Source of the DNA: an uncultured Acidobacteriota bacterium
Lineage (GTDB): Bacteria; Acidobacteriota; Thermoanaerobaculia; Multivoradales; UBA5704
Assembly: GCA_963770895.1 (NCBI GenBank)
Contig: CAVYRF010000002.1
Coordinates: forward strand, 5,152,001 to 5,216,000
DNA length: 64,000 nucleotides
Direction of reading: 5' to 3'
Below the pieces are notes generated by a model. It worked only from the letters and a program-made list of their open reading frames with translations. It ran no database searches and was not told where the DNA came from. Below, piece by piece: positions 7,285-32,890 of this stretch. Both the position numbers and the translations under genes were made by a program. The stretch's first letter is position 1. Every line of letters begins with the position of its first letter.

Positions 7285-9027
7285 TCATCTTACGGACCGC
7301 GGCGCGGCCTGTCCAGCCGCAGGGGCCGCTTGCGTCGCGGCTGTCGCGGCTGCCGCCGGCGTGGCGGTCGGCGGGGGTGCGGTCGCGGTCGGAGGCGCAG
7401 TCGGCGCAGGTGCGGTCGCGGTCGGCGGCGAAGTCGGCGCGGTCGCGGTCGGAGGCGAAGTCGGCGCAGGCGCGGTCACGGTCGGCGGCGAAGTCGGCGC
7501 AGGCGCGGTCACGGCCGGCGGCGCAGTCGGCGCGGTCGCGGTCACGGTCGGCGGCGAAGTCGGCGCGGTAGCGGTCGGAGGCGCAGTCGGCGCAGGCGCG
7601 GGCTTCTTCGCGGGCGCGTGCGCGGGCTCCTTCGCAGGCGCGGTCGCCGTTGGCGCGGCGGCGGACTCTTCCCCGATCAGCTGGTCGTAGGCGGCGCCCA
7701 GCGCGGCGGTGAAGGCGGCGGCGGAAAAGCGCTGCTCGAAGGTGGCGCGGGCGCGGGCGCCCAGCTGCCGGCGGAGCGCGGGGTCGGCGAGCAGCCGGCC
7801 GAGGGCGCCGGCGAGCGCGGCGACGTCGCCGGGCGGGACGAGCAGCGCGTTGTCGCCGTCGGTCAGGTCTTCGGGCAGGCCGTCGCAGCGCGACGAGACG
7901 ATCGCGCAGCCGGCCTGCAGCGCTTCCAGCACCGCGAGCGAGCCGCTGCCTTCCTGAATCGAAGGCAGCACGAAGATCGCCGCGTGCCGCAGGAAAGGGC
8001 GGGGATCGTCGACCCTTCCGGGCAGGGCGACGCGATCGCCCAGGCCCAGCCGCTGCGCCAGCGCCCGGTGCGCCGCGAGCAGCGGCCCCTGGCTCAACAG
8101 GCAGGCGCGGCAGGCGATGCCGCGATCGCGCAGGGCGGCGAGCGCGTGCAGCAGGACGTCGACTCCCTTGCGCGGGTCGTGGCGCGACAGCGAGACGACC
8201 AGCGGCGGCGCGGCCGGCGATGCGAGCGCCGCAAGGTCGGGCGGCAAGTCCGACAGGACAGCCGCCTGAGGCGCCGGCGCCGGTGGGGCGGCGAGCGGTC
8301 CGGCGTCGACGCCGGTCGGCCCCGGTGCCGTCTGCGGCTCCGTCTCCGGCTCCGCCAGGCGGCCCCCCGGCGCGTCGTCGAAGGCGGCCGGGGCCGCGTA
8401 GGGAATCTGGCGGATATCGACGGTCAACCGGTAGTCGGCGAGCAGGCGATCGCGCACCGACTGGTAATTGATCAGCACCAGGCGCTGCGCCTGGTAGCCG
8501 CGGCGTTCGCAAGGCGCGCCCAGCAGCAGCACCATGCCGTACTCGCGCCAGTGGCGCAGGCGCTGGCGCAGGCCGTGGTAGCCCTGCAGGCCGGTCAGCT
8601 TTTCGCGGTACTCGTGCTGCAACGTGGTGTACGCGCTCGCCACCGAGACGGCGCGGCGTCCCCGCCGGGCCAGCGATCGCGCGACGCCCGCGGCCACGTA
8701 GCCCCACACGCCGAAGCCGTGCAGCAGCACCGGCCCCGGACGGTCGCCCAGATGGCGCCGGATCGCGGCGGCGACAAAGGGGCGGTGGGCGCCGACCATG
8801 AAGCCGCGGAACGGCCGCACCGGCGACGCGACCCGATGCACGGTGGCGAAGTCGGTCTGCCACCGGGCGGCGTGGTCGCCGGCGCAGAAGACGTGCGGCG
8901 CAAATCCCGCCGCGCTCGCCGCCATGGCGTGGGCCAGGACGTAGCTTTCGTGGCCGCCGACCTTGGCAAAGGGGTCGATGCCGGACACCAGGACCAGCTG
9001 CACCGCCTTACGCACGGCCGGGCTCAA
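7285..9027 (-). CDS. Glycosyltransferase family 4 (GT-B) with Pro/Thr/Ala-rich C-terminal tail
   Basis: GGHESY, SRHDPRKGVDVLL, FVLPSIQEGSGSLAVLEALQAGCAIV, DGDNALLVPPGD. TTG start at 9027 overlaps the upstream TGA (TTGA). Confidence 0.85.
   Translation of the reverse strand: MSPAVRKAVQLVLVSGIDPFAKVGGHESYVLAHAMAASAAGFAPHVFCAGDHAARWQTDFATVHRVASPVRPFRGFMVGAHRPFVAAAIRRHLGDRPGPVLLHGFGVWGYVAAGVARSLARRGRRAVSVASAYTTLQHEYREKLTGLQGYHGLRQRLRHWREYGMVLLLGAPCERRGYQAQRLVLINYQSVRDRLLADYRLTVDIRQIPYAAPAAFDDAPGGRLAEPETEPQTAPGPTGVDAGPLAAPPAPAPQAAVLSDLPPDLAALASPAAPPLVVSLSRHDPRKGVDVLLHALAALRDRGIACRACLLSQGPLLAAHRALAQRLGLGDRVALPGRVDDPRPFLRHAAIFVLPSIQEGSGSLAVLEALQAGCAIVSSRCDGLPEDLTDGDNALLVPPGDVAALAGALGRLLADPALRRQLGARARATFEQRFSAAAFTAALGAAYDQLIGEESAAAPTATAPAKEPAHAPAKKPAPAPTAPPTATAPTSPPTVTATAPTAPPAVTAPAPTSPPTVTAPAPTSPPTATAPTSPPTATAPAPTAPPTATAPPPTATPAAAATAATQAAPAAGQAAPRSVR
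7362..7600 (-). repeat. Imperfect tandem repeat encoding (PTATAPTSP / PTVTAPAPTSP)n
   Basis: Recurring GCGGTCGCGGTCGG(A/C)GGCG(A/C)AGTCGGCGC units in the GT4 3' end. Confidence 0.85.
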
Positions 9028-10043
9028 CGGGCGTCCGCGCCCACGTTCACGGCGGCGGTCGCCGCCGTCCCCGCCGCGTCCGCCGCTCCCGCCGCGCCCG
9101 CCGGTCTGTCGCGGCGGCGTAGCAGCGCCCGGCGCAGCGACCGGCGCAAGGGAAACGCCCACAGCTCCTGCGGCACGATCGGCTGGCGGGCCGTGGTCAG
9201 GCGCCCGCCCAGCCGTTGCCGCAGCGCCGCCGGGGTGCCGGTGCCAAAGCGGCGTGCCAGCTCGCGCCCAGTGACGTACTGCCGGTCCAGGTAGAGGTAG
9301 TCCGCCGCGGCGTCGGCGGCGAACCACAGCCAGTTGGCCGCCAGGTAGCTGGACGCGGTGAAGCCGACGTTGGGATCCAGGTAGGTGAGCACCAGCGCCG
9401 CCTGCGGAAAGCGCTGCCGCAGCAGCGGCAGCGCGCGGCTCCAGCAGAACGAGAAGGCGTTGCGCGGCGCCCAGCGAAAGGTGTACACGCGCGACAGCAA
9501 CAGCACGTTGTCGGGCGCCACCCCCGCCGGCAGCGCGTCGCCGTGACCGGCCAGGTCGAAGCGCGACGCCAGCAGCAGCGTCGCCGGCGGCATCCCCTGC
9601 GGCGTCCCCGCGAAGTAGAGCCCCAGCGCCGCGCCGTCGCGCGGCGTGCCGACGTAGTGGAACCGCTCGCAGACCGCGCGCGTCACGTCGGCGGGCACGT
9701 CGCGGACGCTGCTGCCGGCCGCGCCGTCGCCGCGCCCCTCATGCCAGTGGAGAAATCCCTGCTGGTCGCGGCGGATGCGCTCGAGCACTGCCCGTGCTTC
9801 GGCGGCGGCGATGCGCGGGTCGGCCAGCTCGCGGCGCGACAGCCGCGGCATCTGCTGCCGCAACCGCAGGCGCGCCAGAAACGTGTCGTCTCCCGGTTCG
9901 GCAACCAGGTCGAGCGCGCGGTCGGCCGCCAGCGCATAAGGGCTCACCGGGTGCGGCACCTGACCCTCCGCGGGCGGCGCCGGGACCGTCAGCGGCGGCC
10001 CGTCGGACGGTGGCGCTGCCCGGGTGCGGAGCGGGTTGTTCAT
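9024..10043 (-). CDS. Mom-like (GNAT-fold, adenine methylcarbamoylase-family) protein
   Basis: Motif order CERFHY...LGLY...LLLSRVY...APRNAFS...LVLTYLDPNVGFTASSYLAANW...YLYLD parallels the Mom-family pattern HY..LGL..L.R..P.N..S..SYAD...G..G..Y.A.NW. Confidence 0.65.
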   Translation of the reverse strand: MNNPLRTRAAPPSDGPPLTVPAPPAEGQVPHPVSPYALAADRALDLVAEPGDDTFLARLRLRQQMPRLSRRELADPRIAAAEARAVLERIRRDQQGFLHWHEGRGDGAAGSSVRDVPADVTRAVCERFHYVGTPRDGAALGLYFAGTPQGMPPATLLLASRFDLAGHGDALPAGVAPDNVLLLSRVYTFRWAPRNAFSFCWSRALPLLRQRFPQAALVLTYLDPNVGFTASSYLAANWLWFAADAAADYLYLDRQYVTGRELARRFGTGTPAALRQRLGGRLTTARQPIVPQELWAFPLRRSLRRALLRRRDRPAGAAGAADAAGTAATAAVNVGADAR

Positions 10044-10184
10044 GTGATGGGCGCCAGAATATCACCGGGGTACAGAGCGGTGAGGTGGCGACCGTCTCAC
10101 CAAGTTCGTGCTCACGCACTTTCTGTTGCGGAGAGCGGTCTCTCCCCATCCATTGTGTCCGCCGAGACGGACAAGGAGGAATCC

Positions 10185-10370
10185 ATGAGGAAGCACCTGC
10201 ACAAGCTCCAGCTGAACCGCGAAACTCTGCGCGGGCTCGAGGGCACCAACCTGCGCCGCGCCGCCGCCGGCGTCTACGCGAGCCTCGGCACCTGTGGCAC
10301 CCCCTGCACCGAACAGTGCACCAATCCCTGCTCCTGGACCTGCCACTACCCCTGCGGCGAGCAGCCGTAA
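10185..10370 (+). CDS. RiPP precursor peptide (class I lanthipeptide-like leader, Cys-every-fourth core), 61 aa
   Basis: Strong SD AAGGAGG before ATG 10185. Sequence MRKHLHKLQLNRETLRGLEGTNLRRAAAG-VYASLGTCGTPCTEQCTNPCSWTCHYPCGEQP, with codon usage typical of the genome. Confidence 0.85.
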   Translation: MRKHLHKLQLNRETLRGLEGTNLRRAAAGVYASLGTCGTPCTEQCTNPCSWTCHYPCGEQP

Positions 10371-10519
10371 GAGGGATCCGAGCCGCAGATCTGTCTCGGC
10401 GGAGGTTCGCCGGGCGGCCCGCGGCCGGCGGGCGGTGGGGCAGACGCTCGATCGCCACCCGGCCGCCGGCAGTTGCGGCCCAGGCGCGGGCAGGCCGGCG
10501 CGGCCGGCGCCCAGCCGCG

Positions 10520-10548
10520 TTGACAAGGGGGGGCTCGGGTCATAGCAT
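10520..10548 (+). promoter_or_regulatory. Sigma70-type promoter of the pyrR operon
   Basis: TTGACA (10520-10525), 17 bp spacer, TAGCAT (10543-10548), ending 20 nt before the pyrR ATG. Confidence 0.7.
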
Positions 10549-10568
10549 GCCGCGGACCCGGAGAGGCG

Positions 10569-11126
10569 ATGGCCCACGACCTGACGCCGAAAGCGACCAT
10601 CCTTGATGCTGAGCAGATGGCGCGCATGATTCGGCGGATGGCTGGCGAAATCAGCGAGCGCAACCGCGGTGTGTCGGACCTGCTGCTGATCGGCATCCGC
10701 ACGCGCGGAGTGCCGCTGGCCGCAGCGATCGCCGCCGAGATCGAGCACATGGAGGGGCTGAAGGTGCCCCTGGGGGTGCTCGACATCACGCTGTATCGCG
10801 ACGACCTGTCGGCGGTGGGGGCGCAGCCGCGGGTGGGAGTCAGCCGGCTGCCGCATAAGATCGACGGGCGCGTCGTGGTGCTGTGCGACGACGTGCTGTT
10901 CACCGGGCGGACGGTGCGGGCGGCGCTCGACCAGCTGCTCGACTACGGGCGGCCGCGCTCGGTGCAGCTGGCGGTGCTGATCGACCGCGGCCACCGCGAG
11001 CTGCCGATCCAGGCCGACGTGGTGGGCAAGGTGGTGCCCACGTCGCGCGACGAGGCGATCGAGGTGTGCTTCGAAGCCACCGACGGCAGCCAGCAGGTAC
11101 GCATCCTGGAGCGCGCGGCGCCGTGA
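10569..11126 (+). CDS. pyrR: PyrR bifunctional regulator / uracil phosphoribosyltransferase
   Basis: [50 protein letters not shown]. Confidence 0.96.
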
Positions 11127-12064
11127 GCGAGGTGCGCTGGACGCGCGAGGACCTGCTGGGAATCGCCGAGCTGTCGCCGGGCGAGATCGAGCTCATCCTG
11201 GATACCGCCGAATCGTTCCGCGAAGTGGGGGAGCGGCCGATCAAGAAGGTGCCGGCGCTGCGCGGCAAGACGGTGGTCAACCTCTTCTTCGAATCCTCGA
11301 CCCGCACGCGCTCCAGCTTCGAGATCGCCGAAAAGCGTCTGTCGGCGGACAACCTCAATTTTTCGGCTTCGGGATCGGCGCTGTCGAAGGGGGAGAGCCT
11401 GGTGGACACGGCGCTCAACCTGCAGGCGATGGCGCCCGACCTCATCGTCATCCGCCACGCCCACGCCGGGGCGCCGCACCTGCTGGCGCGCAAGCTCAAG
11501 GCGGGGGTGATCAACGCCGGCGACGGCGCGCACGAGCACCCGACGCAGGCGCTGCTGGACGCCTATACCATCCGCCGCCACAAGGGGCGGCTGGCCGGCC
11601 TCAAGGTGGCGATCATCGGCGACATCGAGCACAGCCGCGTGGTGCGGTCGAACATCCACCTGCTGACCAAGATGGGGGCGCGGGTGACGGTGGCCGGCCC
11701 GCATACGCTGATGCCGGTGGGGATCGAGCGCATGGGGGTGGCGGCGGCGTTCACCCTGGCGGACGCCATCCGCGACGCCGACGTCATCATGATGCTGCGC
11801 ATCCAGCTGGAGCGGCAGGGGCGGATGGCGTTCCCGTCGGTCAAGGAGTACTTCCAGCTGTTCGGGCTGACCACGGAACGGCTGAAGGGGGCCAGGGAGG
11901 ACGTCATCATCATGCATCCGGGCCCGATGAACCGGGGGGTGGAGATCGCCAGCGAGGTGGCCGACGGCCCCTACTCGGTGATCCTGGAGCAGGTCACCCA
12001 TGGGGTGTCGGTGCGCATGGCGGTGCTCTACCTGCTGTCCGGCGTCCACGAGGAGACCGCCTGA
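11123..12064 (+). CDS. pyrB: Aspartate carbamoyltransferase catalytic subunit
   Basis: [53 protein letters not shown] start overlaps the pyrR stop. Confidence 0.96.
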
Positions 12065-26288: not shown

Positions 26289-26605
26289 CGGCTCTCCACG
26301 GAAGATGTGCCCCCGGCAGACGGCGGGCGTCGGGCGGTCGCCAGAGGATATCGCACCCCGCGAGGCGGCGAGAGATCAGCATTTGCCGTAAGGCTCGTGG
26401 TTATATGCTGACGCCGCGGAGCCGGGCGGTCGGCAGGGTGGCAAGCAGCCGGGTTCGGCCGCGCTTCGCGCCCCGCGCCCCGCAGACGGCGCGGTGTGCA
26501 CTCCTTAGGATGGAACCAGAGGTCTGGCAGCCGCCGCGGCGATTCCGCCGCGCCGGCGGCGGCAGGCAAGGGGACGCCCCTGGCGGCGCGTCCGCGGAGG
26601 ATGGC

Positions 26606-28015
26606 ATGGCAGGTGAAACGGAAGCGGGCAGCTGGCTGCCGATCGTGACGGAGGGACCGCTCCTGGCGCAGATCGACCAGGCGCTGGACGAATTGGCGGT
26701 GGTGCTGGCGCCGCTCGCGGGCGAAGCGCCGGCGGCAGGCGGGTCGGGTGCGAGCGCGGCGGCGGCCGCCGCGCCGACCAATGGCCGGCGGCCGGCGGAT
26801 GCGGCGGCGGAAGAGGCGGCGGCGGGGGAGGGGGCGTGGCAGCTGGGCGGCGGGCCGTCGGGCGAGGCGCTCTTCTTTACCTACCTCGACCAGGCGCGGC
26901 CGGAGCGCGGCTATGACGAGCGGGCGCTGGTGCACCTGGAGGCGGTGATCGAGGCGGCGGCGCGCGAATCGCTCTTTCCCAGCCTGTACGGCGGGTTCAG
27001 CGGTGTCGCCTGGGCGTTGGAGCACCTGACCGGGCGGCTGCTGGAGGAGCCCGCGTCCGGCGCCGAGGACCCCGGCGCCGAGGTCGCGGAGGTGCTCGAC
27101 GGCTACCTGCGGCAGACGCCGTGGAAGGACGACTACGACCTGATCGGCGGCCTGGTCGGCTACGGCGTGTACGCGCGCGAGCGCGCGCCGCGGCCGGGAG
27201 GCGCCGAAGCGGCGGCGAGCGTCGTCGAGCGGCTGGGCGAGCTGGCCGAGCGGCGCGACGGCGGCGTCACCTGGCACACGCCGGCGGAGCGGCTGGCGCT
27301 GCAGAAGGCGGACTACCCGGAGGGCCACTACAACCTGGGCGTGGCGCACGGCGTGCCGGGCGTCATCGGCCTGCTGGGGGAGCTGCGGGCCGCCGGCCTG
27401 GCGACGGCGGAGTCCGACCGGATGCTGGCGGACTCGGTGGCGTGGCTGTTCGGGCAGCGGCTGCCGGCGGGCACCGGCTCGGCGTTCGGCTACAACACCG
27501 TGCCGGGCGGCGCGGTGGTGCGGGAGGCGCCGTCTCGCCTGGCCTGGTGCTATGGCGACGCCGGCATCGTGCTGACGCTGATGGTCGCCGCGCGCGCCGC
27601 CGGCGAGCCGAGCTGGGAGGCGGCGGCGCTGGACATCGCGCGTGCCGCGGCGCAGCGGCCGCATGCTGAGGTGGGAGTGCTGGACGGCGGCCTGTGCCAT
27701 GGGTCCGCCGGCCTGGCGCACCTGTACAACCGCCTCTACCAGGCGACGCGCGAGCCTCTCTTCAAGGCCCAGGCGATCGCCTGGCTGGAGCACCTGCTCT
27801 CCTTGCGGCAGGCGGGGGAGGGCCTTGGCGGCTGGCGCACCTGGCGGCCGTTGGGACCGATGGGCGATCCCAATCCCACTTTCGGCTGGGTGACCGACTC
27901 CGGCTTTCTGACCGGCGCCGCCGGCATCGGCCTCACCCTGCTGGGCGCGGTCAGCGCGGTCGAGCCCGCCTGGGATCGCCTGCTGCTGACCAGCGTGCCG
28001 CCGATCGCACCCTGA
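26606..28015 (+). CDS. lanC: Lanthionine synthetase C (class I lanthipeptide cyclase)
   Basis: SD GGAGG. SLYGGFSG, YDLIGGLVG, NLGVAHGVPG, RLAWCYGDAG, GLCHGSAG, GFLTGAAG; the Zn-ligand WCxG and CHG motifs are intact. Confidence 0.92.
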   Translation: MAGETEAGSWLPIVTEGPLLAQIDQALDELAVVLAPLAGEAPAAGGSGASAAAAAAPTNGRRPADAAAEEAAAGEGAWQLGGGPSGEALFFTYLDQARPERGYDERALVHLEAVIEAAARESLFPSLYGGFSGVAWALEHLTGRLLEEPASGAEDPGAEVAEVLDGYLRQTPWKDDYDLIGGLVGYGVYARERAPRPGGAEAAASVVERLGELAERRDGGVTWHTPAERLALQKADYPEGHYNLGVAHGVPGVIGLLGELRAAGLATAESDRMLADSVAWLFGQRLPAGTGSAFGYNTVPGGAVVREAPSRLAWCYGDAGIVLTLMVAARAAGEPSWEAAALDIARAAAQRPHAEVGVLDGGLCHGSAGLAHLYNRLYQATREPLFKAQAIAWLEHLLSLRQAGEGLGGWRTWRPLGPMGDPNPTFGWVTDSGFLTGAAGIGLTLLGAVSAVEPAWDRLLLTSVPPIAP

Positions 28016-28049: not shown

Positions 28050-31000
28050 TCAGGACGTGGCGGCGGCTTCGGCGGTCGCGGCGGCTTCGGCTGCCGCGGC
28101 GCCGGCTGCTGCCGGGGCGGCTTCCGCGGCGGCGTCCGGCGGGGTCGGTGCGGGGCTGTTGCGGGCGGCGCGGGCGGCGCGCGAGCGGTGGACCTGGTAC
28201 AGGAAGTCGTAGAGGACCATTTCGTGGGCGCGCGCCGAGGAGCGGATGAAGCGGTTGACGTGCATGTGGGCCAGGCTGGTCGACATGTCGGCCAGGGTTC
28301 CCAGCAGGGCGCCCTGCTCCTGCAGGCGGTGGAGCTCGGCAAGGATCGGTGCCGACCTTTGCGAGCGGCGGGCGAAGACGGCCAGGGCCGGGGCGAGCGG
28401 GTTGTCGGGATCGCCCGCGGCGTCGAGCAGCGGCGCCAGCTGCGGGCGCTCGGTGCGGAACTTCTGGTCGAGCTGCACCTGCAGCGCCTTCTGCGCCTTT
28501 TCGTCGGCGTTGGCGCCGGCAAATTCGCGGTTGAAGTTGTCGCGCAGGCGCGACAGCACCTTGACCTTGGTCGCGGCGTCCAGGCCGACGTCGTCGAGCA
28601 GGGCGTTGACACCGAAGAAGGCCAGGCGCCAGCGCAGGTCGGCGCCCTCGTCGCCCTCCAGCATGTCGAGGATGTCCATCACCGCTTCGCTGTCGGCCTG
28701 GAAGAGACGCTCGACCAGGCCGATGCCGGCCGGGCCGCCGTAGCGCTCGACTTCCTGCTCGTAGGTGTCCAGCTGCAGCTTCCACATGCGGCCGTCGGCG
28801 AGCAGCGGCGCCGCGGCGGCATGCAGGGCGGGCAGCACCTGCGCGGTGAGGGCCGCGGGATCGCCGTGGAAGCGCACCCGCACGTGCCAGTCGGGATCGC
28901 CGTAGCGGATGAAAAACCAGCTGTCGATGAGCCCTGCCGGCCCCACCTGGCGCAGCAGCGGCGCCACCACGTCGCGCAGCACGCGGTCGGCGGTGGCGGT
29001 GCCGGTGTAGAGCTTGGCGTAGAGCCATTCGGAGCCCGGGGCAAACGACCGCTGCATGCCGGCGCCGGTTCCGGCGGCGGCGAGCGGCGCCGGGCGGGCG
29101 GTGGCCGGTGGCGTTGCGGGGGCTGAGGCGGCGGTGGCTGCCGTGGTGGGCTGGGCCTGCGGCTGGGGGCGCGGCAGGCGATGGTAGGGCACCACCAGCT
29201 CGGAGACGAAGCGGCCTTCGGGACCGTGCGCGACCAGCGCGTCGGGTCCCGGGAAGAGCTCGTGCAGGCGCGCCCGGTCGCGCTCTTCGACCACGTCCAG
29301 GAAGGCGTCGATCGCCAGCGTGTTGTCCAGGTCGACCAGCAGCTCGTTGTCGCCGTCGGCGAGAACCACCAGGCGCGGCAGGCGCCGCCGCGCACGCCAA
29401 GCCTGGACGGCCACGAAGCGTTGGGTGCCCTGCGCCTTGGCGAGCTGCTTGATCTCTTCTCCGGTCATCCACCAGGCGGCGCGCGACAGCACCAGCCGCC
29501 CGTTGGTGACGCGCGGCAGGAACGGCGCGCTGTCGAGCGCTCCCCAGTTCCAGCTGAAGCCGCCGACCAGCTCCTGCGCCTGGAGGGTGCACAGGAACCG
29601 ATACAGACCCAGGCTGCGGGTGATGAAGTTATGGGCGCTGGTCAGGCGGGGGATGATCTCCCGTCCCAGCGCCCGCGAGGTGATCACCACCCGGTTGCCG
29701 ACGACCGACACCAGCAGATCGGTGATCGGGATCTGCCGATCTTCGGGCGCGCCGGAGCGGCCCAGGTAGGGGATCTCGTAGTCGCGCATCACCGGCCGCG
29801 ACAGGATGTTGCCGATCCGCCCCTGCGGCAGGTGGACGATCTCGGCAAACAGGGCGTCCGGCCGCAGCGCCTCTTCGGCGCGCAGATGAGCCCGAGTGTG
29901 CTGTTCCAGCAGCGGATCGGCGTGGCAGAAGCGCCCCAGCAGGCGGGCGCCCGAGGGCCCCGCGGCGCCGTTCATCAGCAGCTGGAAGTCGCCCGCGGCC
30001 ACCGCTTCGGGCGAGGCGGCGGCCAGGAACACCACCACCTGAAAGGCGTCGGGGAGGCGGTCCGGGCGCTCCGTTCCCGCCATGCGATCGAGATCTTCGG
30101 CGGTCAGCTCCATCTGCTGGCTGTCCTGCGCCAGCGTGTCCTGGAGCTTGGCGAGCAGCGCCGCCTGGCGCAGGCTCCAGGCGACCGTGGATTCGGCGGC
30201 GGCGCCGCCCAGGGCGAGGCCGCGCAGCAGCGGCGACGCTTCGGCGCCGACTTCCGAGGTGCGCTCGAAGCCGATGCCGATCTCTTCGTCGAGCGCTTCG
30301 ACCAGCGGCACCTGGCGTTCGCCGAAGCGCTCCTGGAATTCCTGCCGGAACTTTTCCAGCCCTTCGTTGCGCGACCGGCCCACCAGGCGCAGCTGCAGGT
30401 CCATGCCGCGCGCCACTTCCGCCAGCACGGCATCGTCGAGGCTGGCTTCGACGAAGGGTTTGACCATGTCGACCTGGAACAGGCGCGCCATCTCGACCGG
30501 CGTCGGCAAGGTCTCCAGGCTGGTGGCGATGGCGCGGTAGGAGTCGGGGGGGGCGCCGGGTCCCGCCGCGTCCAGCGCCGCCAGGGCGTCGCGGGCGGCG
30601 GCCAGGCGCTCCGCCGCCTGCTGCCCGGCCGGCAGGGTGGCCAGGTGCTGCACCAGGTCGTGGATCGCTTCGGGCCCGGTGACCGGCGGCGACAGGTCCG
30701 ACACCAGCACCTGGGAGTCGATCAGCTCGGTGATAAAGGCGTCGGCGTCTTCGCGCGAGATCTCGAAATCCGCTTCGGCGTCGGGTTCGGCCGCGGGGGC
30801 GTCGGTGTCGGCGGGTGCAGCGGGTGCGGCGGCGGCGGCGTGCTCCGCCGTCACCAGCGCGGCGGCGAGGTCGGCGGCCAGGGCGCCGCCGCGCGCGCGT
30901 TCCAGGGTGGCCTCCAGGTAGTCGGAGGCGTCCACCGCCACCAGGTGGTGGGAGCGCACCTTCTTCTCGAGACGCGCTTCGGCATAGCGCAGGCGGCCGG

Positions 31001-31583
31001 CGGCGCGGTACAGGCTGGAGTTGGGGTGGAAGCGCAACGCGGCGCGCATGGCCGGATCGCGCTCCAGCTCTTCGCAGAGCGCGAACAGGTAGTCCATGTC
31101 GAGCCGGGTGTGGCGCCCGTAGGCGGCGCGCGGGGCGAGCGACAGGGCGGTGCGCGTGGCGGCGCCGGCCGGCCGCACCGCCGTCGAGCAGCCCGAGAAC
31201 ATGCCGAACGGGGTCGCCCGCGATGCCATGCGCAGGAAGTAGCGCACCAGGGCGCGCTCGGCCCGCTGCCCCTTCTTGCTTTCGGGGTCGCGCCGCCAGA
31301 GCTCCATGGCGTCGGCGAGCGACGGCGACGCCACGAACAGCGCTTCGCGCACTTCGGCGCGCTCCGCCAGCGCTTCGAGGCGCGTGCGCAGCATCCGGCG
31401 GTCCGCGGCGATGGCGGCGGCCAGCGCTTCGCTGTCTGCCGCCCCTGCCGCTGCCGCCGCGGGCGCGGCGAGGCCGGCGCTCCACGCTTCCACCTCCTCG
31501 AACGGCAGGAGCGGCGTGCGGAAGACGAAGAACGAGGGTCGCTCGTAGAGATCGGCGATCGATGTGCGAGTCTGCGTAGTCAC
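28050..31583 (-). CDS. lanB: Lantibiotic dehydratase LanB (glutamylation plus elimination domains)
   Basis: FRTPLLP, Y..RM.SRATPFGMFSG, GRF, NILSRP, PRLTSAHNF, FLPRV, DNELL.DL. C-terminal WLYAKLY, FFIRY.DP..H.R.RF, TY..E.ERYGG, F..DS, SLAHMHVNR. Confidence 0.94.
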   Translation of the reverse strand: MTTQTRTSIADLYERPSFFVFRTPLLPFEEVEAWSAGLAAPAAAAAGAADSEALAAAIAADRRMLRTRLEALAERAEVREALFVASPSLADAMELWRRDPESKKGQRAERALVRYFLRMASRATPFGMFSGCSTAVRPAGAATRTALSLAPRAAYGRHTRLDMDYLFALCEELERDPAMRAALRFHPNSSLYRAAGRLRYAEARLEKKVRSHHLVAVDASDYLEATLERARGGALAADLAAALVTAEHAAAAAPAAPADTDAPAAEPDAEADFEISREDADAFITELIDSQVLVSDLSPPVTGPEAIHDLVQHLATLPAGQQAAERLAAARDALAALDAAGPGAPPDSYRAIATSLETLPTPVEMARLFQVDMVKPFVEASLDDAVLAEVARGMDLQLRLVGRSRNEGLEKFRQEFQERFGERQVPLVEALDEEIGIGFERTSEVGAEASPLLRGLALGGAAAESTVAWSLRQAALLAKLQDTLAQDSQQMELTAEDLDRMAGTERPDRLPDAFQVVVFLAAASPEAVAAGDFQLLMNGAAGPSGARLLGRFCHADPLLEQHTRAHLRAEEALRPDALFAEIVHLPQGRIGNILSRPVMRDYEIPYLGRSGAPEDRQIPITDLLVSVVGNRVVITSRALGREIIPRLTSAHNFITRSLGLYRFLCTLQAQELVGGFSWNWGALDSAPFLPRVTNGRLVLSRAAWWMTGEEIKQLAKAQGTQRFVAVQAWRARRRLPRLVVLADGDNELLVDLDNTLAIDAFLDVVEERDRARLHELFPGPDALVAHGPEGRFVSELVVPYHRLPRPQPQAQPTTAATAASAPATPPATARPAPLAAAGTGAGMQRSFAPGSEWLYAKLYTGTATADRVLRDVVAPLLRQVGPAGLIDSWFFIRYGDPDWHVRVRFHGDPAALTAQVLPALHAAAAPLLADGRMWKLQLDTYEQEVERYGGPAGIGLVERLFQADSEAVMDILDMLEGDEGADLRWRLAFFGVNALLDDVGLDAATKVKVLSRLRDNFNREFAGANADEKAQKALQVQLDQKFRTERPQLAPLLDAAGDPDNPLAPALAVFARRSQRSAPILAELHRLQEQGALLGTLADMSTSLAHMHVNRFIRSSARAHEMVLYDFLYQVHRSRAARAARNSPAPTPPDAAAEAAPAAAGAAAAEAAATAEAAATS

Positions 31584-31789: not shown

Positions 31790-32614
31790 CTACTCGAGCA
31801 CCGTCGCGCAGTTGACGGTGTAGACGAAGTAGGAGGCGCCGCAGCCCCCGTTGTCGCCGTTGCCGCCGCCGTTGCCGCCATTGCCGCCGCAGCCGCCGCC
31901 GCCACCATTGCCGCCGTTGCCGTAGCCGCCGTGACCGTCGTCGCCGCCGCGGCCGCTGCCGCCGCCGTTGCCGTAGTCGCTGGTCTGGCTGAGGCCGCCG
32001 TTGGGCACGGAGCTGATGGCGTTGCCGGTGCTCCAACCGCCGTTGCCGTGGCCATTGCCGCCGTTGCCGCCGTTCCAACCACCGTTGCCGCCACTGCCGC
32101 CGTTGCCGCCACTGCCGCTGCCGCTCTGGGTGCAGGCCTGCGAGCCCGGGAAGAGCTGGCCGGCGCCCCACGCATCCTGCTGGTCGTTGCCGTTGTCGTC
32201 GCCATGGCCGTAGTCGTTCTGCGAGGTCGACGAGCCGACCACGGCATGGAGGGCGATGTAGAGGCTGGTGCCCGGCACCGCCGTACCCAGCGGGATGGTG
32301 AAGGTGTAGGTGGTGACCGCGGGAGAGAGGGTTTCGCGGTAGGGGAACTGGTCGACGATCGGCGCCTGGTTCTGGGTCTGCGGGATGCCCGCCAGGGTCT
32401 GGCTGACCGCGGCGTCCAGCTGGTCGATCGTGACGGTGCCGGTGGTGGCCACGGTGATGTAAAGATTGGAAATGTCGTTCGAAACCGTCACCGTCCCGTC
32501 GGTGGTCGTGCCGTTGGCAACCAGGTTCACGGTCAGCGGATTGCTGGTGCACCTGCCGAAAGCCGCGGCGCAACAGGCCAGGCCAAGGACTATTGAAATT
32601 AACAGTCGTTTCAT
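31790..32614 (-). CDS. Secreted protein with Gly/Asn-rich low-complexity insert
   Basis: SD GGAGG, signal peptide MKRLLISIVLGLACCAAAFG, beta domain GTVTVSND..NLY...QFPY...YTFTIPL...IALHAVV...AWGAG..FPG, then (GGNG)n, then ASYFVYTV. Confidence 0.8.
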   Translation of the reverse strand: MKRLLISIVLGLACCAAAFGRCTSNPLTVNLVANGTTTDGTVTVSNDISNLYITVATTGTVTIDQLDAAVSQTLAGIPQTQNQAPIVDQFPYRETLSPAVTTYTFTIPLGTAVPGTSLYIALHAVVGSSTSQNDYGHGDDNGNDQQDAWGAGQLFPGSQACTQSGSGSGGNGGSGGNGGWNGGNGGNGHGNGGWSTGNAISSVPNGGLSQTSDYGNGGGSGRGGDDGHGGYGNGGNGGGGGCGGNGGNGGGNGDNGGCGASYFVYTVNCATVLE

Positions 32615-32639
32615 GAGATGAATGCCTCCCACCAAGTAG

Positions 32640-32890
32640 CCGAGTAACAGACTGCAGGAGCTCACAGCGAGCCCCTTTTTTGAAAAGCTCCGATATTTTA
32701 CAGCTAGATACGCATAGAGCGCAATATTCATATCTCCTCCGCTCGCTGCAACTTGCCGTTTTCCGCCGGGACGCTTTATATATCTGATTTTTACTATTGC
32801 GATTGATGCGCAATATTGCGCCGGTAAATACCGGTGGCGGGTATTGTGATCGGTTTCTTCAAGGCAAGGAACCGATTGCTTTACAAGCAA
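32640..32890. promoter_or_regulatory. AT-rich intergenic regulatory region
   Basis: Markedly AT-rich stretch in a GC-rich window, including the palindrome CGCAATATTGCG near 32810-32821. Confidence 0.45.

What the first reader, a model, noticed from the sequence alone, without database searches (positions are those of the whole stretch)
10185..10370. Hidden RiPP precursor with six cysteines spaced exactly every fourth residue
Seen: strong SD, a 29-aa leader containing KLQLNRETL and ending AAAG, and a 32-aa core with Cys at positions 8, 12, 16, 20, 24 and 28 plus 7 Ser/Thr. The ORF track buries it inside a spurious 384-aa ORF. Established: KLxLxxET-type leaders occur on class I lanthipeptide precursors, and LanB/LanC link Ser/Thr to Cys. 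Inference: up to six (methyl)lanthionine rings, a densely cross-linked topology. Strict CX3C spacing also allows radical-SAM or other Cys-modifying enzymes encoded elsewhere. The leader/core boundary is inferred.
Basis: partly seen in the sequence, partly recalled or inferred. Interest (0 to 1): 0.85.

Follow-up and report, generated by a model that had tools for sequence, protein, structure and literature searches.

The report
Lanthipeptide precursor with cysteine ladder
This small gene is a real precursor of a ring-locked (lanthipeptide-type) peptide, and is one of roughly ninety scattered sister genes in a soil acidobacterium that seem to share a single modifying enzyme pair.

Summary
Window 10185-10370 (+) encodes a 61-aa peptide behind an AAGGAGG Shine-Dalgarno site. 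It has a 29-aa leader (KLQLNRETL...AAAG) and a 32-aa core with six Cys at strict CX3C spacing and seven Ser/Thr.

It is not a lone oddity. About 85-89 paralogues with the same leader and hypervariable Cys/Ser/Thr-rich cores are scattered over this 8.16-Mb genome (class Thermoanaerobaculia, Acidobacteriota, judging by the record titles of its closest LanB relatives).

The genome has one full-length class I dehydratase (LanB, window 28050-31583) beside a LanC cyclase (26405-28015), 16 kb from this gene, which is the nearest precursor to that pair.

- All 19 of the 31 related genomes that carry this leader also carry this LanB type (2 only as fragments). Only 1 of the 12 without the leader does.
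- In several relatives the order is precursor-LanC-LanB.
- A 72%-identical metagenomic homologue keeps all six Cys and all seven Ser/Thr.
- The known CXXX-repeat radical-SAM maturase was not found.
- Both LanM enzymes have their own precursors with a different leader.

Best reading: a class I lanthipeptide precursor with an LxLxKx5L-type leader, giving up to six small thioether rings. The kind is known. The strict Cys ladder and the roughly 90-member class I library are the notable parts. There is no expression or chemical evidence.

The parts
10173..10179 (+). Shine-Dalgarno site AAGGAGG, 5 nt upstream of the ATG
   Evidence: sequence; a purine-rich block at -13 to -6 is shared by the 85 paralogues analysed.
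10185..10370 (+). Precursor gene (61 aa plus stop), a LanA-type class I lanthipeptide precursor
   Evidence: E = 6e-13 to the leader profile; the exact protein is in NCBI/ENA; 72% homologue P0002; GC3 0.90.
10185..10271 (+). Leader, residues 1-29, with L8-x-L10-x-R12-x5-L18 and E13-T14-L15, ending AAAG. The boundary is inferred.
   Evidence: alignment A1: M1, L10 and T14 invariant; E13, L15, L18, L23 and A27 in at least 90% of 21 leaders; LxLxKx5L motif in PMC7268733.
10272..10367 (+). Core, residues 30-61: six Cys at CX3C spacing and seven Ser/Thr. Predicted substrate for dehydration and thioether ring formation.
   Evidence: all 6 Cys and all 7 Ser/Thr kept in P0002; related TCGxPC cores in other genomes.
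26405..28015 (+). LanC-type cyclase. The start codon is uncertain; the LANC_like domain spans about 26843-27988.
   Evidence: 112.3 bits, cut-off 23.2; best solved match 8BYK, a 'Lanthionine synthetase C-like protein', then NisC; WCYG and CHG motifs align.
28050..31583 (-). Full-length LanB dehydratase with glutamylation and elimination domains. It is the only one of this type in the genome.
   Evidence: Lant_dehydr_N 550 bits, Lant_dehydr_C 236 bits; only 2 PF04738 hits in the genome, the other 124 bits; best solved match 5EHK, a lantibiotic dehydratase, E = 6e-47; NisB E = 2e-24.

Best explanation
The ORF encodes a class I lanthipeptide precursor. Its leader (LxLxRx5L with ETL, ending AAAG) is the recognition tag for the genome's single full-length LanB, 16 kb away. 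By the established LanB mechanism, LanB would glutamylate and eliminate Ser/Thr of the core to Dha/Dhb. A LanC would then add the six Cys thiols to them; the LanB-adjacent LanC is the first candidate among 9 stand-alone LanC-like genes. From the positions conserved across related cores, the likely pattern is S33 to C37, T36 (or T39) to C41, T42 to C45, T46 to C49, S50 to C53 and T52 to C57, which would be a ladder of small contiguous rings. The leader would be removed at the Gly-type site, probably by a C39-peptidase ABC exporter encoded elsewhere. The gene is one of about 85-89 paralogues that share the leader and appear to use the same LanB in trans. Shown: the gene, the leader family, the LanB and LanC genes, co-occurrence and adjacency in relatives, and conservation of Cys and Ser/Thr. 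Inferred: binding, dehydration, ring pattern, cleavage site and export.
For: Leader family: 89 matches in this genome at E <= 0.01. My own iterated HMM gave 92 hits, and 85 were analysed after dropping 2 false hits and the 5 for which my script assigned no start codon. Cores: 17% Cys and 24% Ser+Thr against 0.6% Cys in leaders; 82 of 85 cores have at least 2 Cys.

LanB link. Of 31 genomes (the window's own plus 30 relatives), 19 carry the leader. Seventeen of these have a LanB scoring E <= 1e-148 on PF04738. The other 2 (G005, G013) have it only as fragments or split at contig ends. Of the 12 genomes without the leader, only G023 has such a LanB.

Direct adjacency of precursor, LanC and LanB: G024:C127, G002:C91 (same genus, its only precursor), G021:C11 and C7, and G019:C13.

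Of 80 LanB-homologue loci (+/-8 kb) from Acidobacteriota, Myxococcota, Actinomycetota and others, 31 hold at least one ORF matching the leader HMM.

LanM is a worse fit. Five leader-bearing genomes show no LanM, including G018 (33 copies, 100% complete), and 3 LanM genomes show no leader. Both LanM genes here have their own adjacent precursors with a different leader.

The LanC has its Zn-ligand motifs. P0002 (72% identity) keeps 6 of 6 Cys and 7 of 7 Ser/Thr while the residues between them change. Related cores in G032, G040, G006 and G005 keep Ser/Thr at -4 and -1 of the first Cys and directly after Cys 2 and Cys 3.

NCBI's class I leader model NF038153 matches 5 of 10 paralogues just below its cut-off (12-19.7 bits against 22). 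One family member is named 'class I lanthipeptide [Thermoanaerobaculia bacterium]' by NCBI. The motif LxLxKx5L is published for class I LanAs, many of whose leaders end in Gly-Gly.
Against: There is no expression, mass-spectrometry or binding evidence.

The gene is 16 kb from LanB/LanC, with unrelated genes between them (pyrR/B/C, pilB, chorismate synthase, RNase II).

NF038153 did not match this peptide even at E <= 10. Its only NCBIfam hit of note is the CXXX-repeat rSAM target model (18.8 bits, cut-off 50).

The leader ends AAAG, not GG. No C39 peptidase gene is in the window.

49 of 80 LanB loci had no leader ORF within 8 kb, and G023 has the LanB type without the leader.

The related genomes are not independent, so the co-occurrence overstates the support. 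The same leader also sits directly upstream of a GMC oxidoreductase at another locus, so the tag is not exclusive to LanB/LanC.

No counterpart lies upstream of pyrR in 9 congeners, and no close match to the core was found in 60 genomes of the family.
Confidence: 0.7

Rival explanations
1. The peptide is an unmodified or disulfide-bonded double-glycine-leader bacteriocin. It would be exported and cleaved by a C39-peptidase ABC transporter, and its six Cys would form three disulfides rather than thioethers.
For: The leader ends in a Gly-type site. The genome has 9 C39-domain hits, 3 of them strong. Of the 87 HMM hits given a start codon, 14 lie within 20 kb of any lan, C39 or SPASM gene I mapped (the script stopped before the last, contig C3, row).
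Against: The leader family tracks LanB across genomes and sits in precursor-LanC-LanB operons. Ser/Thr positions, which disulfides do not need, are conserved together with the Cys. Ser/Thr are enriched N-terminal to Cys (z = 7.8 at -5) and depleted C-terminal to it across 85 cores.
Confidence: 0.1
2. The main modification is other Cys chemistry, for example thiazole formation by a GMC-family oxidoreductase as shown for ThaO/TheO in Thermoanaerobaculia, or processing by a LanM.
For: PMC13083261 (section 9 read whole) shows GMC oxidases installing thiazoles in Cys-rich lanthipeptide-type precursors of this bacterial class. In this genome a precursor with the same leader lies 216 nt upstream of a GMC oxidoreductase. 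The genome has two LanM genes.
Against: None of the 6 GMC hits is in the window. The published sites are Gly-Cys/GGC motifs, and this core has no Gly-Cys dipeptide. Both LanMs have cognate precursors with another leader. LanM presence fits the leader less well than LanB presence does. The ThaA/TheA sequences are in supplements I could not open, so leader identity with them is untested.
Confidence: 0.08
3. The peptide is a CXXX-repeat radical-SAM target, or a ranthipeptide/sactipeptide-like substrate cross-linked at Cys by an rSAM/SPASM enzyme.
For: There is a weak match to TIGR04117, the Cys-Xaa-Xaa-Xaa repeat rSAM target model (18.8 bits, E = 0.0013). One paralogue's leader weakly matches TIGR04149, the rSAM-modified RiPP model (14.8 bits). 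The genome has five SPASM-domain proteins.
Against: Both matches are far below their cut-offs (50 and 25 bits). The cognate maturase family TIGR04115 was not found: best 32.7 bits against a cut-off of 350, no more than generic rSAM similarity, and the model also 'rings' below its cut-off in 10 of 14 control genomes. The nearest SPASM gene is about 580 kb away. The genome is 95% complete, so absence is not proven.
Confidence: 0.05
4. The ORF is a recently inserted or decaying copy that is not expressed.
For: Nothing matching the leader family lies upstream of pyrR in 9 congeners, and the locus is a synteny breakpoint. No RNA data exist.
Against: The ORF is intact with a strong SD and coding-like GC3 of 0.90. 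A 72% homologue shows a selective pattern of conservation, and a near-identical copy occurs in another public assembly.
Confidence: 0.05

Closest known systems
Class I lanthipeptide precursors with the LxLxKx5L leader (Bacteroidetes type, which includes the pinensin family; NCBIfam NF038153 lant_leader_L1a)
   Same: Small precursor with a leader carrying L-x-L-x-(K/R)-x5-L and ending at a Gly-type site. Ser/Thr/Cys-rich core. LanB and LanC are encoded in the genome, and adjacent to such precursors in relatives.
   Different: R replaces K, and the leader ends AAAG rather than GG. This peptide misses the NF038153 model entirely, and paralogues score only 12-19.7 bits against a cut-off of 22. The host is an acidobacterium. 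The LanB is full length, whereas PMC7268733 describes the pinensin LanB as split. The gene is 16 kb from the enzymes.
Prochlorosin / SyncA systems (class II; one ProcM or SyncM enzyme with many scattered precursors)
   Same: Tens of precursor genes per genome share a conserved leader and have hypervariable cores. Most are far from the synthetase, and a single dehydrating enzyme is present. About 85-89 here, against 'up to 79 SyncA substrates' (abstract start of PMC9872173 in the search listing).
   Different: The enzymes here are class I (LanB plus separate LanCs, 9 stand-alone LanC-like genes) and not one bifunctional LanM. Pfam found no family, Nif11 included, on this peptide. Promiscuity of the LanB is inferred, not shown.
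CXXX-repeat peptide / rSAM maturase system (TIGR04117 target, TIGR04115 maturase)
   Same: Cys at every fourth residue in a small peptide, with a weak HMM match.
   Different: The score is far below the cut-off and no cognate maturase was found in the genome. The leader type links to LanB instead.
ThaA/TheA with a GMC oxidase (ThaO/TheO) and LanM in Thermoanaerobaculia (PMC13083261)
   Same: Same bacterial class and a Cys-rich lanthipeptide-type core. A sister precursor here lies directly upstream of a GMC oxidoreductase.
   Different: No GMC gene lies near this ORF and the core has no Gly-Cys motif. That system is class II (LanM). The published precursor sequences could not be seen because supplements are closed.
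Nisin-type ring logic (recalled, not from a call)
   Same: Ser/Thr lie 3-4 residues N-terminal to their partner Cys, like nisin rings A and B.
   Different: Here up to six such small rings would follow each other almost without spacers. There is no lipid II-binding motif to compare, and the function is unknown.

Membership tests
Class I lanthipeptide precursor (LanA), LxLxKx5L/GG-leader type | Small ORF with an N-terminal leader and a Ser/Thr/Cys-rich C-terminal core | tested here: met
   61 aa. The leader has no Cys. The core has 6 Cys and 7 Ser/Thr in 32 residues.
Class I lanthipeptide precursor (LanA), LxLxKx5L/GG-leader type | Leader motif LxLxKx5L | tested here: met
   L8-Q-L10-N-R12-ETLRG-L18, with R for K. 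73 of 85 paralogues fit the loose form and 48 of 85 the strict LxLx[KR]x5L form. The motif is taken from PMC7268733.
Class I lanthipeptide precursor (LanA), LxLxKx5L/GG-leader type | Gly-Gly type leader end | tested here: inconclusive
   This leader ends AAAG. Most paralogues in alignment A1 show (A/V)(A/G)GG. The cleavage site is inferred.
Class I lanthipeptide precursor (LanA), LxLxKx5L/GG-leader type | Curated leader HMM NF038153 at or above 22 bits | tested here: not met
   No hit for this peptide at E <= 10. Five of 10 paralogues score 12-19.7 bits. One metagenomic family member is named 'class I lanthipeptide' by NCBI.
Class I lanthipeptide precursor (LanA), LxLxKx5L/GG-leader type | LanB (glutamylation plus elimination domains) and LanC with Zn ligands encoded with it | tested here: met
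   Both lie in the window, 16 kb away. They are directly adjacent to same-leader precursors in G024, G002, G021 and G019.
Class I lanthipeptide precursor (LanA), LxLxKx5L/GG-leader type | Dehydrated Ser/Thr and (methyl)lanthionine in the product | not testable with these tools
   This needs co-expression and mass spectrometry.
CXXX-repeat rSAM target system (TIGR04117 / TIGR04115) | Target HMM at or above 50 bits | tested here: not met
   18.8 bits.
CXXX-repeat rSAM target system (TIGR04117 / TIGR04115) | Cognate rSAM maturase TIGR04115 in the genome | tested here: not met
   Best score 32.7 bits against a cut-off of 350. The genome is 95% complete.
Prochlorosin-like combinatorial lanthipeptide library | Many scattered precursors with a conserved leader and hypervariable cores | tested here: met
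   89 matches. Cores are not alignable. Of the 87 HMM hits given a start codon, 14 lie within 20 kb of any mapped lan, C39 or SPASM gene (the script stopped before the contig C3 row).
Prochlorosin-like combinatorial lanthipeptide library | A single bifunctional class II synthetase (ProcM type) acting on Nif11/NHLP leaders | tested here: not met
   The leader tracks LanB, not LanM. The LanMs have their own precursors. Pfam found no family on this peptide.
GMC-oxidase thiazole RiPPs (ThaO/TheO type) | GMC oxidoreductase next to the precursor, and a Gly-Cys target motif | tested here: not met
   None of the 6 GMC hits is in the window, and the core has no GC dipeptide. The locus criterion is met by a sister precursor at G000:C2:4970417.

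The most novel reading that the evidence does not exclude
One LanB, together with a set of nine stand-alone LanC cyclases, matures about 85-89 scattered precursors in trans. That would be a class I counterpart of the prochlorosin system and, as far as my searches show, the largest lanthipeptide precursor set reported for one genome. The shared leader may also serve as a common address tag read by further enzymes such as a GMC oxidase. Within this library the CX3C peptide would fold into an unusually dense ladder of six nearly contiguous small thioether rings.
Probability: 0.45. Interest if true: 0.8.

Novelty: new member of a known kind. Interest (0 to 1): 0.6.

Why it matters
Combinatorial lanthipeptide biosynthesis, with one enzyme and dozens of natural substrates, is in the papers my searches returned a class II phenomenon (ProcM, SyncM). 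A class I LanB that accepts about 90 natural cores, helped by a panel of LanC cyclases, would be a natural test bed for substrate tolerance and ring-pattern control. It would also be a ready source of enzymes and leaders for peptide engineering. The CX3C peptide is the most regular member and a clean substrate for asking how a cyclase chooses among many adjacent Ser/Thr-Cys pairs. The leader profile also marks at least 4,870 protein clusters at 50% identity in public data; in a sample of 10 of these clusters I found only two informative names.

Tried and rejected
- **Expression.** No RNA holder is listed for window 9000-12000. Laying four DNA runs gave only short contigs identical to the window where they covered the ORF, and no listed differences, so no population signal.
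- **Search by leader alignment in genome contigs.** I used the LanB protein instead.
- **Tandem DNA repeat** as the cause of the Cys periodicity: none found.
- **Promoter and terminator scan.** It found only the pyrR promoter-like site at 10520-10548 and no terminator-like site.
- **Close matches to the core.** No close match in 60 genomes of the same family. The best were 50% identical in two genomes of another genus.
- **Synteny.** Nothing matching the leader lies upstream of pyrR in 9 congeners.
- **Other Cys-modifying enzymes.** There is one YcaO, more than 100 kb from any precursor on its contig. SPASM proteins are distant.
- **The Mom-family neighbour** as a possible maturase. It is the only PF25680 hit in the genome, so it is not a recurrent partner of the family.
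- **Literature.** Six searches found no paper describing a multi-precursor class I system in Acidobacteriota. This is a statement about those searches only. The supplements of PMC13083261 (ThaA/TheA sequences) were closed.

Full report
**What is there.** Window 10185-10370 (+) is a 186-nt ORF preceded by AAGGAGG (10173-10179) five bases before the ATG. It encodes MRKHLHKLQLNRETLRGLEGTNLRRAAAGVYASLGTCGTPCTEQCTNPCSWTCHYPCGEQP.
- Residues 1-29 carry KLQLNRETL and end AAAG.
- Residues 30-61 have Cys at core positions 8, 12, 16, 20, 24 and 28 and seven Ser/Thr.
- The 384-aa ORF that contains it (9216-10370) is the usual high-GC artefact. Its upstream part runs antisense to a real minus-strand gene (9024-10043, Pfam Mom family).
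- The small ORF has GC3 = 0.90, like the real genes of this 70.7% GC genome.
- No tandem DNA repeat underlies the 12-nt periodicity.
- Only two stretches with five or more consecutive CX3C intervals occur in 14.9 million six-frame residues of the genome.
- The gene is not hidden from gene callers. The exact 61-aa sequence is in the NCBI and ENA protein sets, and a one-residue variant (E19K) is in another public assembly.

**It belongs to a very large paralogous family.**
- A regular-expression scan followed by an iterated local HMM on the laid genome (8.16 Mb, 3 contigs) found 92 hits. After dropping 2 false hits and the 5 for which my script assigned no start codon, 85 were analysed.
- The independent genome search with a 21-leader alignment (A1) gave 89 matches at E <= 0.01, this ORF at E = 6e-13.
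- The genes are 42-88 aa, mostly begin MKK or MRK, and share a purine-rich SD. The leader consensus is MKKxxxKLxLxRETLRxLxxxxLxxAAGG.
- Cores cannot be aligned and are 17% Cys and 24% Ser+Thr, against 0.6% Cys in leaders. 82 of 85 cores have at least 2 Cys.
- CX3C is the preferred Cys spacing in the whole family: 73 successive pairs against 30.7 +/- 4.9 in shuffled cores.
- Ser/Thr are enriched N-terminal to Cys and depleted C-terminal to it.
- This peptide is the most regular member. Only 4 of 85 cores have three or more consecutive CX3C intervals.
- Of the 87 HMM hits given a start codon, 14 lie within 20 kb of any lan, C39 or SPASM gene I mapped. Four are within 400 bp of a stand-alone LanC-like gene (printed rows only; the script stopped before the contig C3 row).

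**Organism.** The closest LanB relatives (57-74% identity) come from records titled Thermoanaerobaculia or Acidobacteriota soil MAGs. LanBs at about 50% identity occur in Holophagales and in Myxococcota such as Archangium and Cystobacter.

**Which enzyme?** The window holds a full-length LanB at 28050-31583 on the minus strand.
- It scores 550 bits on Lant_dehydr_N and 236 bits on Lant_dehydr_C. Its best solved relative is the lantibiotic dehydratase 5EHK (E = 6e-47), then NisB.
- A divergent LanC lies at 26405-28015, with the WCYG and CHG motifs aligned to the solved LanC-like protein 8BYK.
- The genome has only one other PF04738 hit, and it is weak (124 bits).
- It also has 9 stand-alone LanC-like ORFs, 2 LanM genes and 2 further large ORFs with LanC-like domains.
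- This precursor is the nearest family member to the LanB/LanC pair, at 16.5 kb.

Co-occurrence in 31 genomes (the window's own plus 30 relatives):
- 19 carry the leader. Seventeen of them have a LanB with E <= 1e-148 on PF04738. The other two, both fragmented assemblies (G005, G013), have it only as fragments or split at contig ends.
- Of the 12 genomes without the leader, only G023 has such a LanB.

Same-leader precursors lie directly beside LanC and LanB in G024:C127, G002:C91 (same genus, its only copy), G021:C11 and C7, and G019:C13. Of 80 LanB loci from several phyla, 31 hold a leader-HMM hit within 8 kb, and 49 do not.

LanM fits less well:
- Five leader-bearing genomes show no LanM, among them G018 with 33 copies at 100% completeness.
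- Three LanM genomes show no leader.
- Both LanM genes of this genome have their own adjacent 82-aa precursors with a different leader.

**Selection on the core.**
- A 60-aa metagenomic homologue (P0002, 72% identity) keeps all six Cys and all seven Ser/Thr, while the residues between them change.
- Cores in G032, G040, G006 and G005 share the pattern (S/T)xxTCGxPC(S/T)xxC(S/T)xxC. Ser/Thr are conserved at -4 and -1 of the first Cys and directly after Cys 2 and Cys 3, but not at the position of T39.
- This suggests rings S33-C37, T36-C41, T42-C45, T46-C49, S50-C53 and T52-C57. That pattern is inference.

**Rivals.**
- The weak match to the CXXX-repeat rSAM target model (18.8 bits, cut-off 50) reflects the Cys periodicity. 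The cognate maturase TIGR04115 was not found (32.7 bits against 350), and SPASM proteins are far away.
- A recent paper shows GMC oxidases making thiazoles in Cys-rich precursors of Thermoanaerobaculia (PMC13083261; passages, section 9 read whole). No GMC gene is near this ORF and the core lacks Gly-Cys. A sister precursor, however, sits 216 nt upstream of a GMC oxidoreductase, so the tag may be read by more than one enzyme.
- A disulfide-only, exported-bacteriocin reading does not explain the conserved Ser/Thr or the LanB linkage.

**Comparison with the known.**
- Walker et al. [quoted passage not shown] Many of those leaders end in Gly-Gly, and a C39 protease is often encoded in the cluster. 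This leader fits that motif with R for K.
- NCBI's leader model NF038153 matches 5 of 10 paralogues just under its cut-off, but not this peptide.
- One family member is named 'class I lanthipeptide [Thermoanaerobaculia bacterium]' by NCBI and another 'natural product precursor' by JGI. The kind is therefore known.
- Less ordinary is the scale. There are 1-58 copies in all 9 congeners.
- In the two samples, genomes with 30 or more copies all belong to this order, in families f1 and f2 (scoring was capped at 53 candidates per genome). Genomes outside this order showed 1-2 copies.
- 4,870 clusters at 50% identity in the global library match the leader at E <= 0.001.
- The nearest analogue, many scattered precursors for one enzyme, is class II. 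'Up to 79 SyncA substrates' is from the abstract start of PMC9872173 in the search listing.
- Six literature searches found no description of such a class I system in Acidobacteriota.

**Locus history.** In 9 congeners nothing upstream of pyrR matches the leader or the Mom-like gene. Similarity to G000 starts about 30-85 nt before pyrR. The relatives' upstream gene maps 5.1 Mb away in G000. The precursor therefore sits at a synteny breakpoint in variable DNA.

**Verdict.** The peptide is a new member of a known kind. Its strict Cys ladder and its place in a roughly 90-member class I library make it worth an experiment.

Noticed in passing
G000:C2:4970417-4970578 (-) and L147:2423-4201 (-): A precursor with the same leader lies 216 nt upstream, on the same strand, of a GMC-family oxidoreductase (GMC_oxred_C 64.9 bits, GMC_oxred_N 31.7 bits). 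This recalls the thiazole-forming ThaO/TheO enzymes of Thermoanaerobaculia (PMC13083261).
   Followed up: partly
L133:8448-8696 (-) and L145:8213-8461 (-): Each of the two LanM genes has its own adjacent 82-aa precursor with a different leader (AW(R/K)D...(N/H)PA type), so two leader systems coexist in one genome.
   Followed up: partly
G000:C1:652841-652984, C2:5020187-5020345, C2:2709152-2709301: A sub-group has the variant leader K(L/M)(K/R)I(S/N)xETLLPL and Cys-poor, His-containing cores. One of them lies 147 nt from a LanC-like gene. These peptides may carry a different modification.
   Followed up: no
window 9024-10043 (-): The divergent neighbour is the genome's only Mom-family (PF25680) gene. 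Neither it nor the precursor lies upstream of pyrR in 9 congeners. The relatives' upstream gene maps to G000:C2:29340-30575, so this is a synteny breakpoint.
   Followed up: partly
upstream regions of the paralogues; window about 10116-10121: The k-mers CGCACT, GCACTG and CACTGC are about 6-fold enriched in the 130 nt upstream of the precursors (10-11 of 85 regions). The window copy has CGCACT at about -70. This may be a shared promoter or regulator site.
   Followed up: no
G000:C2:3320488-3323265 (L134): An operon-like row of a precursor followed by two LanC-like genes with no LanB nearby. The core there is also rich in short Cys repeats (CTNACTDCTVACTACTNVCSGCTRGCTACGVSC).
   Followed up: partly
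window 31790-32890 (-): An ORF between LanB and an M14 carboxypeptidase-like gene encodes a protein with an internal hydrophobic, signal-like stretch and a long Gly/Asn-rich tail. It was not scanned against any family library.
   Followed up: no
G000:C2 near 1.8208 Mb (+): This is the only other stretch in the genome with five consecutive CX3C intervals. It has no recognisable leader and may be an off-frame artefact.
   Followed up: no
public protein library (P0006, P0015, P0042, P0082): A few library proteins of 132-168 aa contain two leader matches. They are probably tandem precursor genes fused by gene callers.
   Followed up: no
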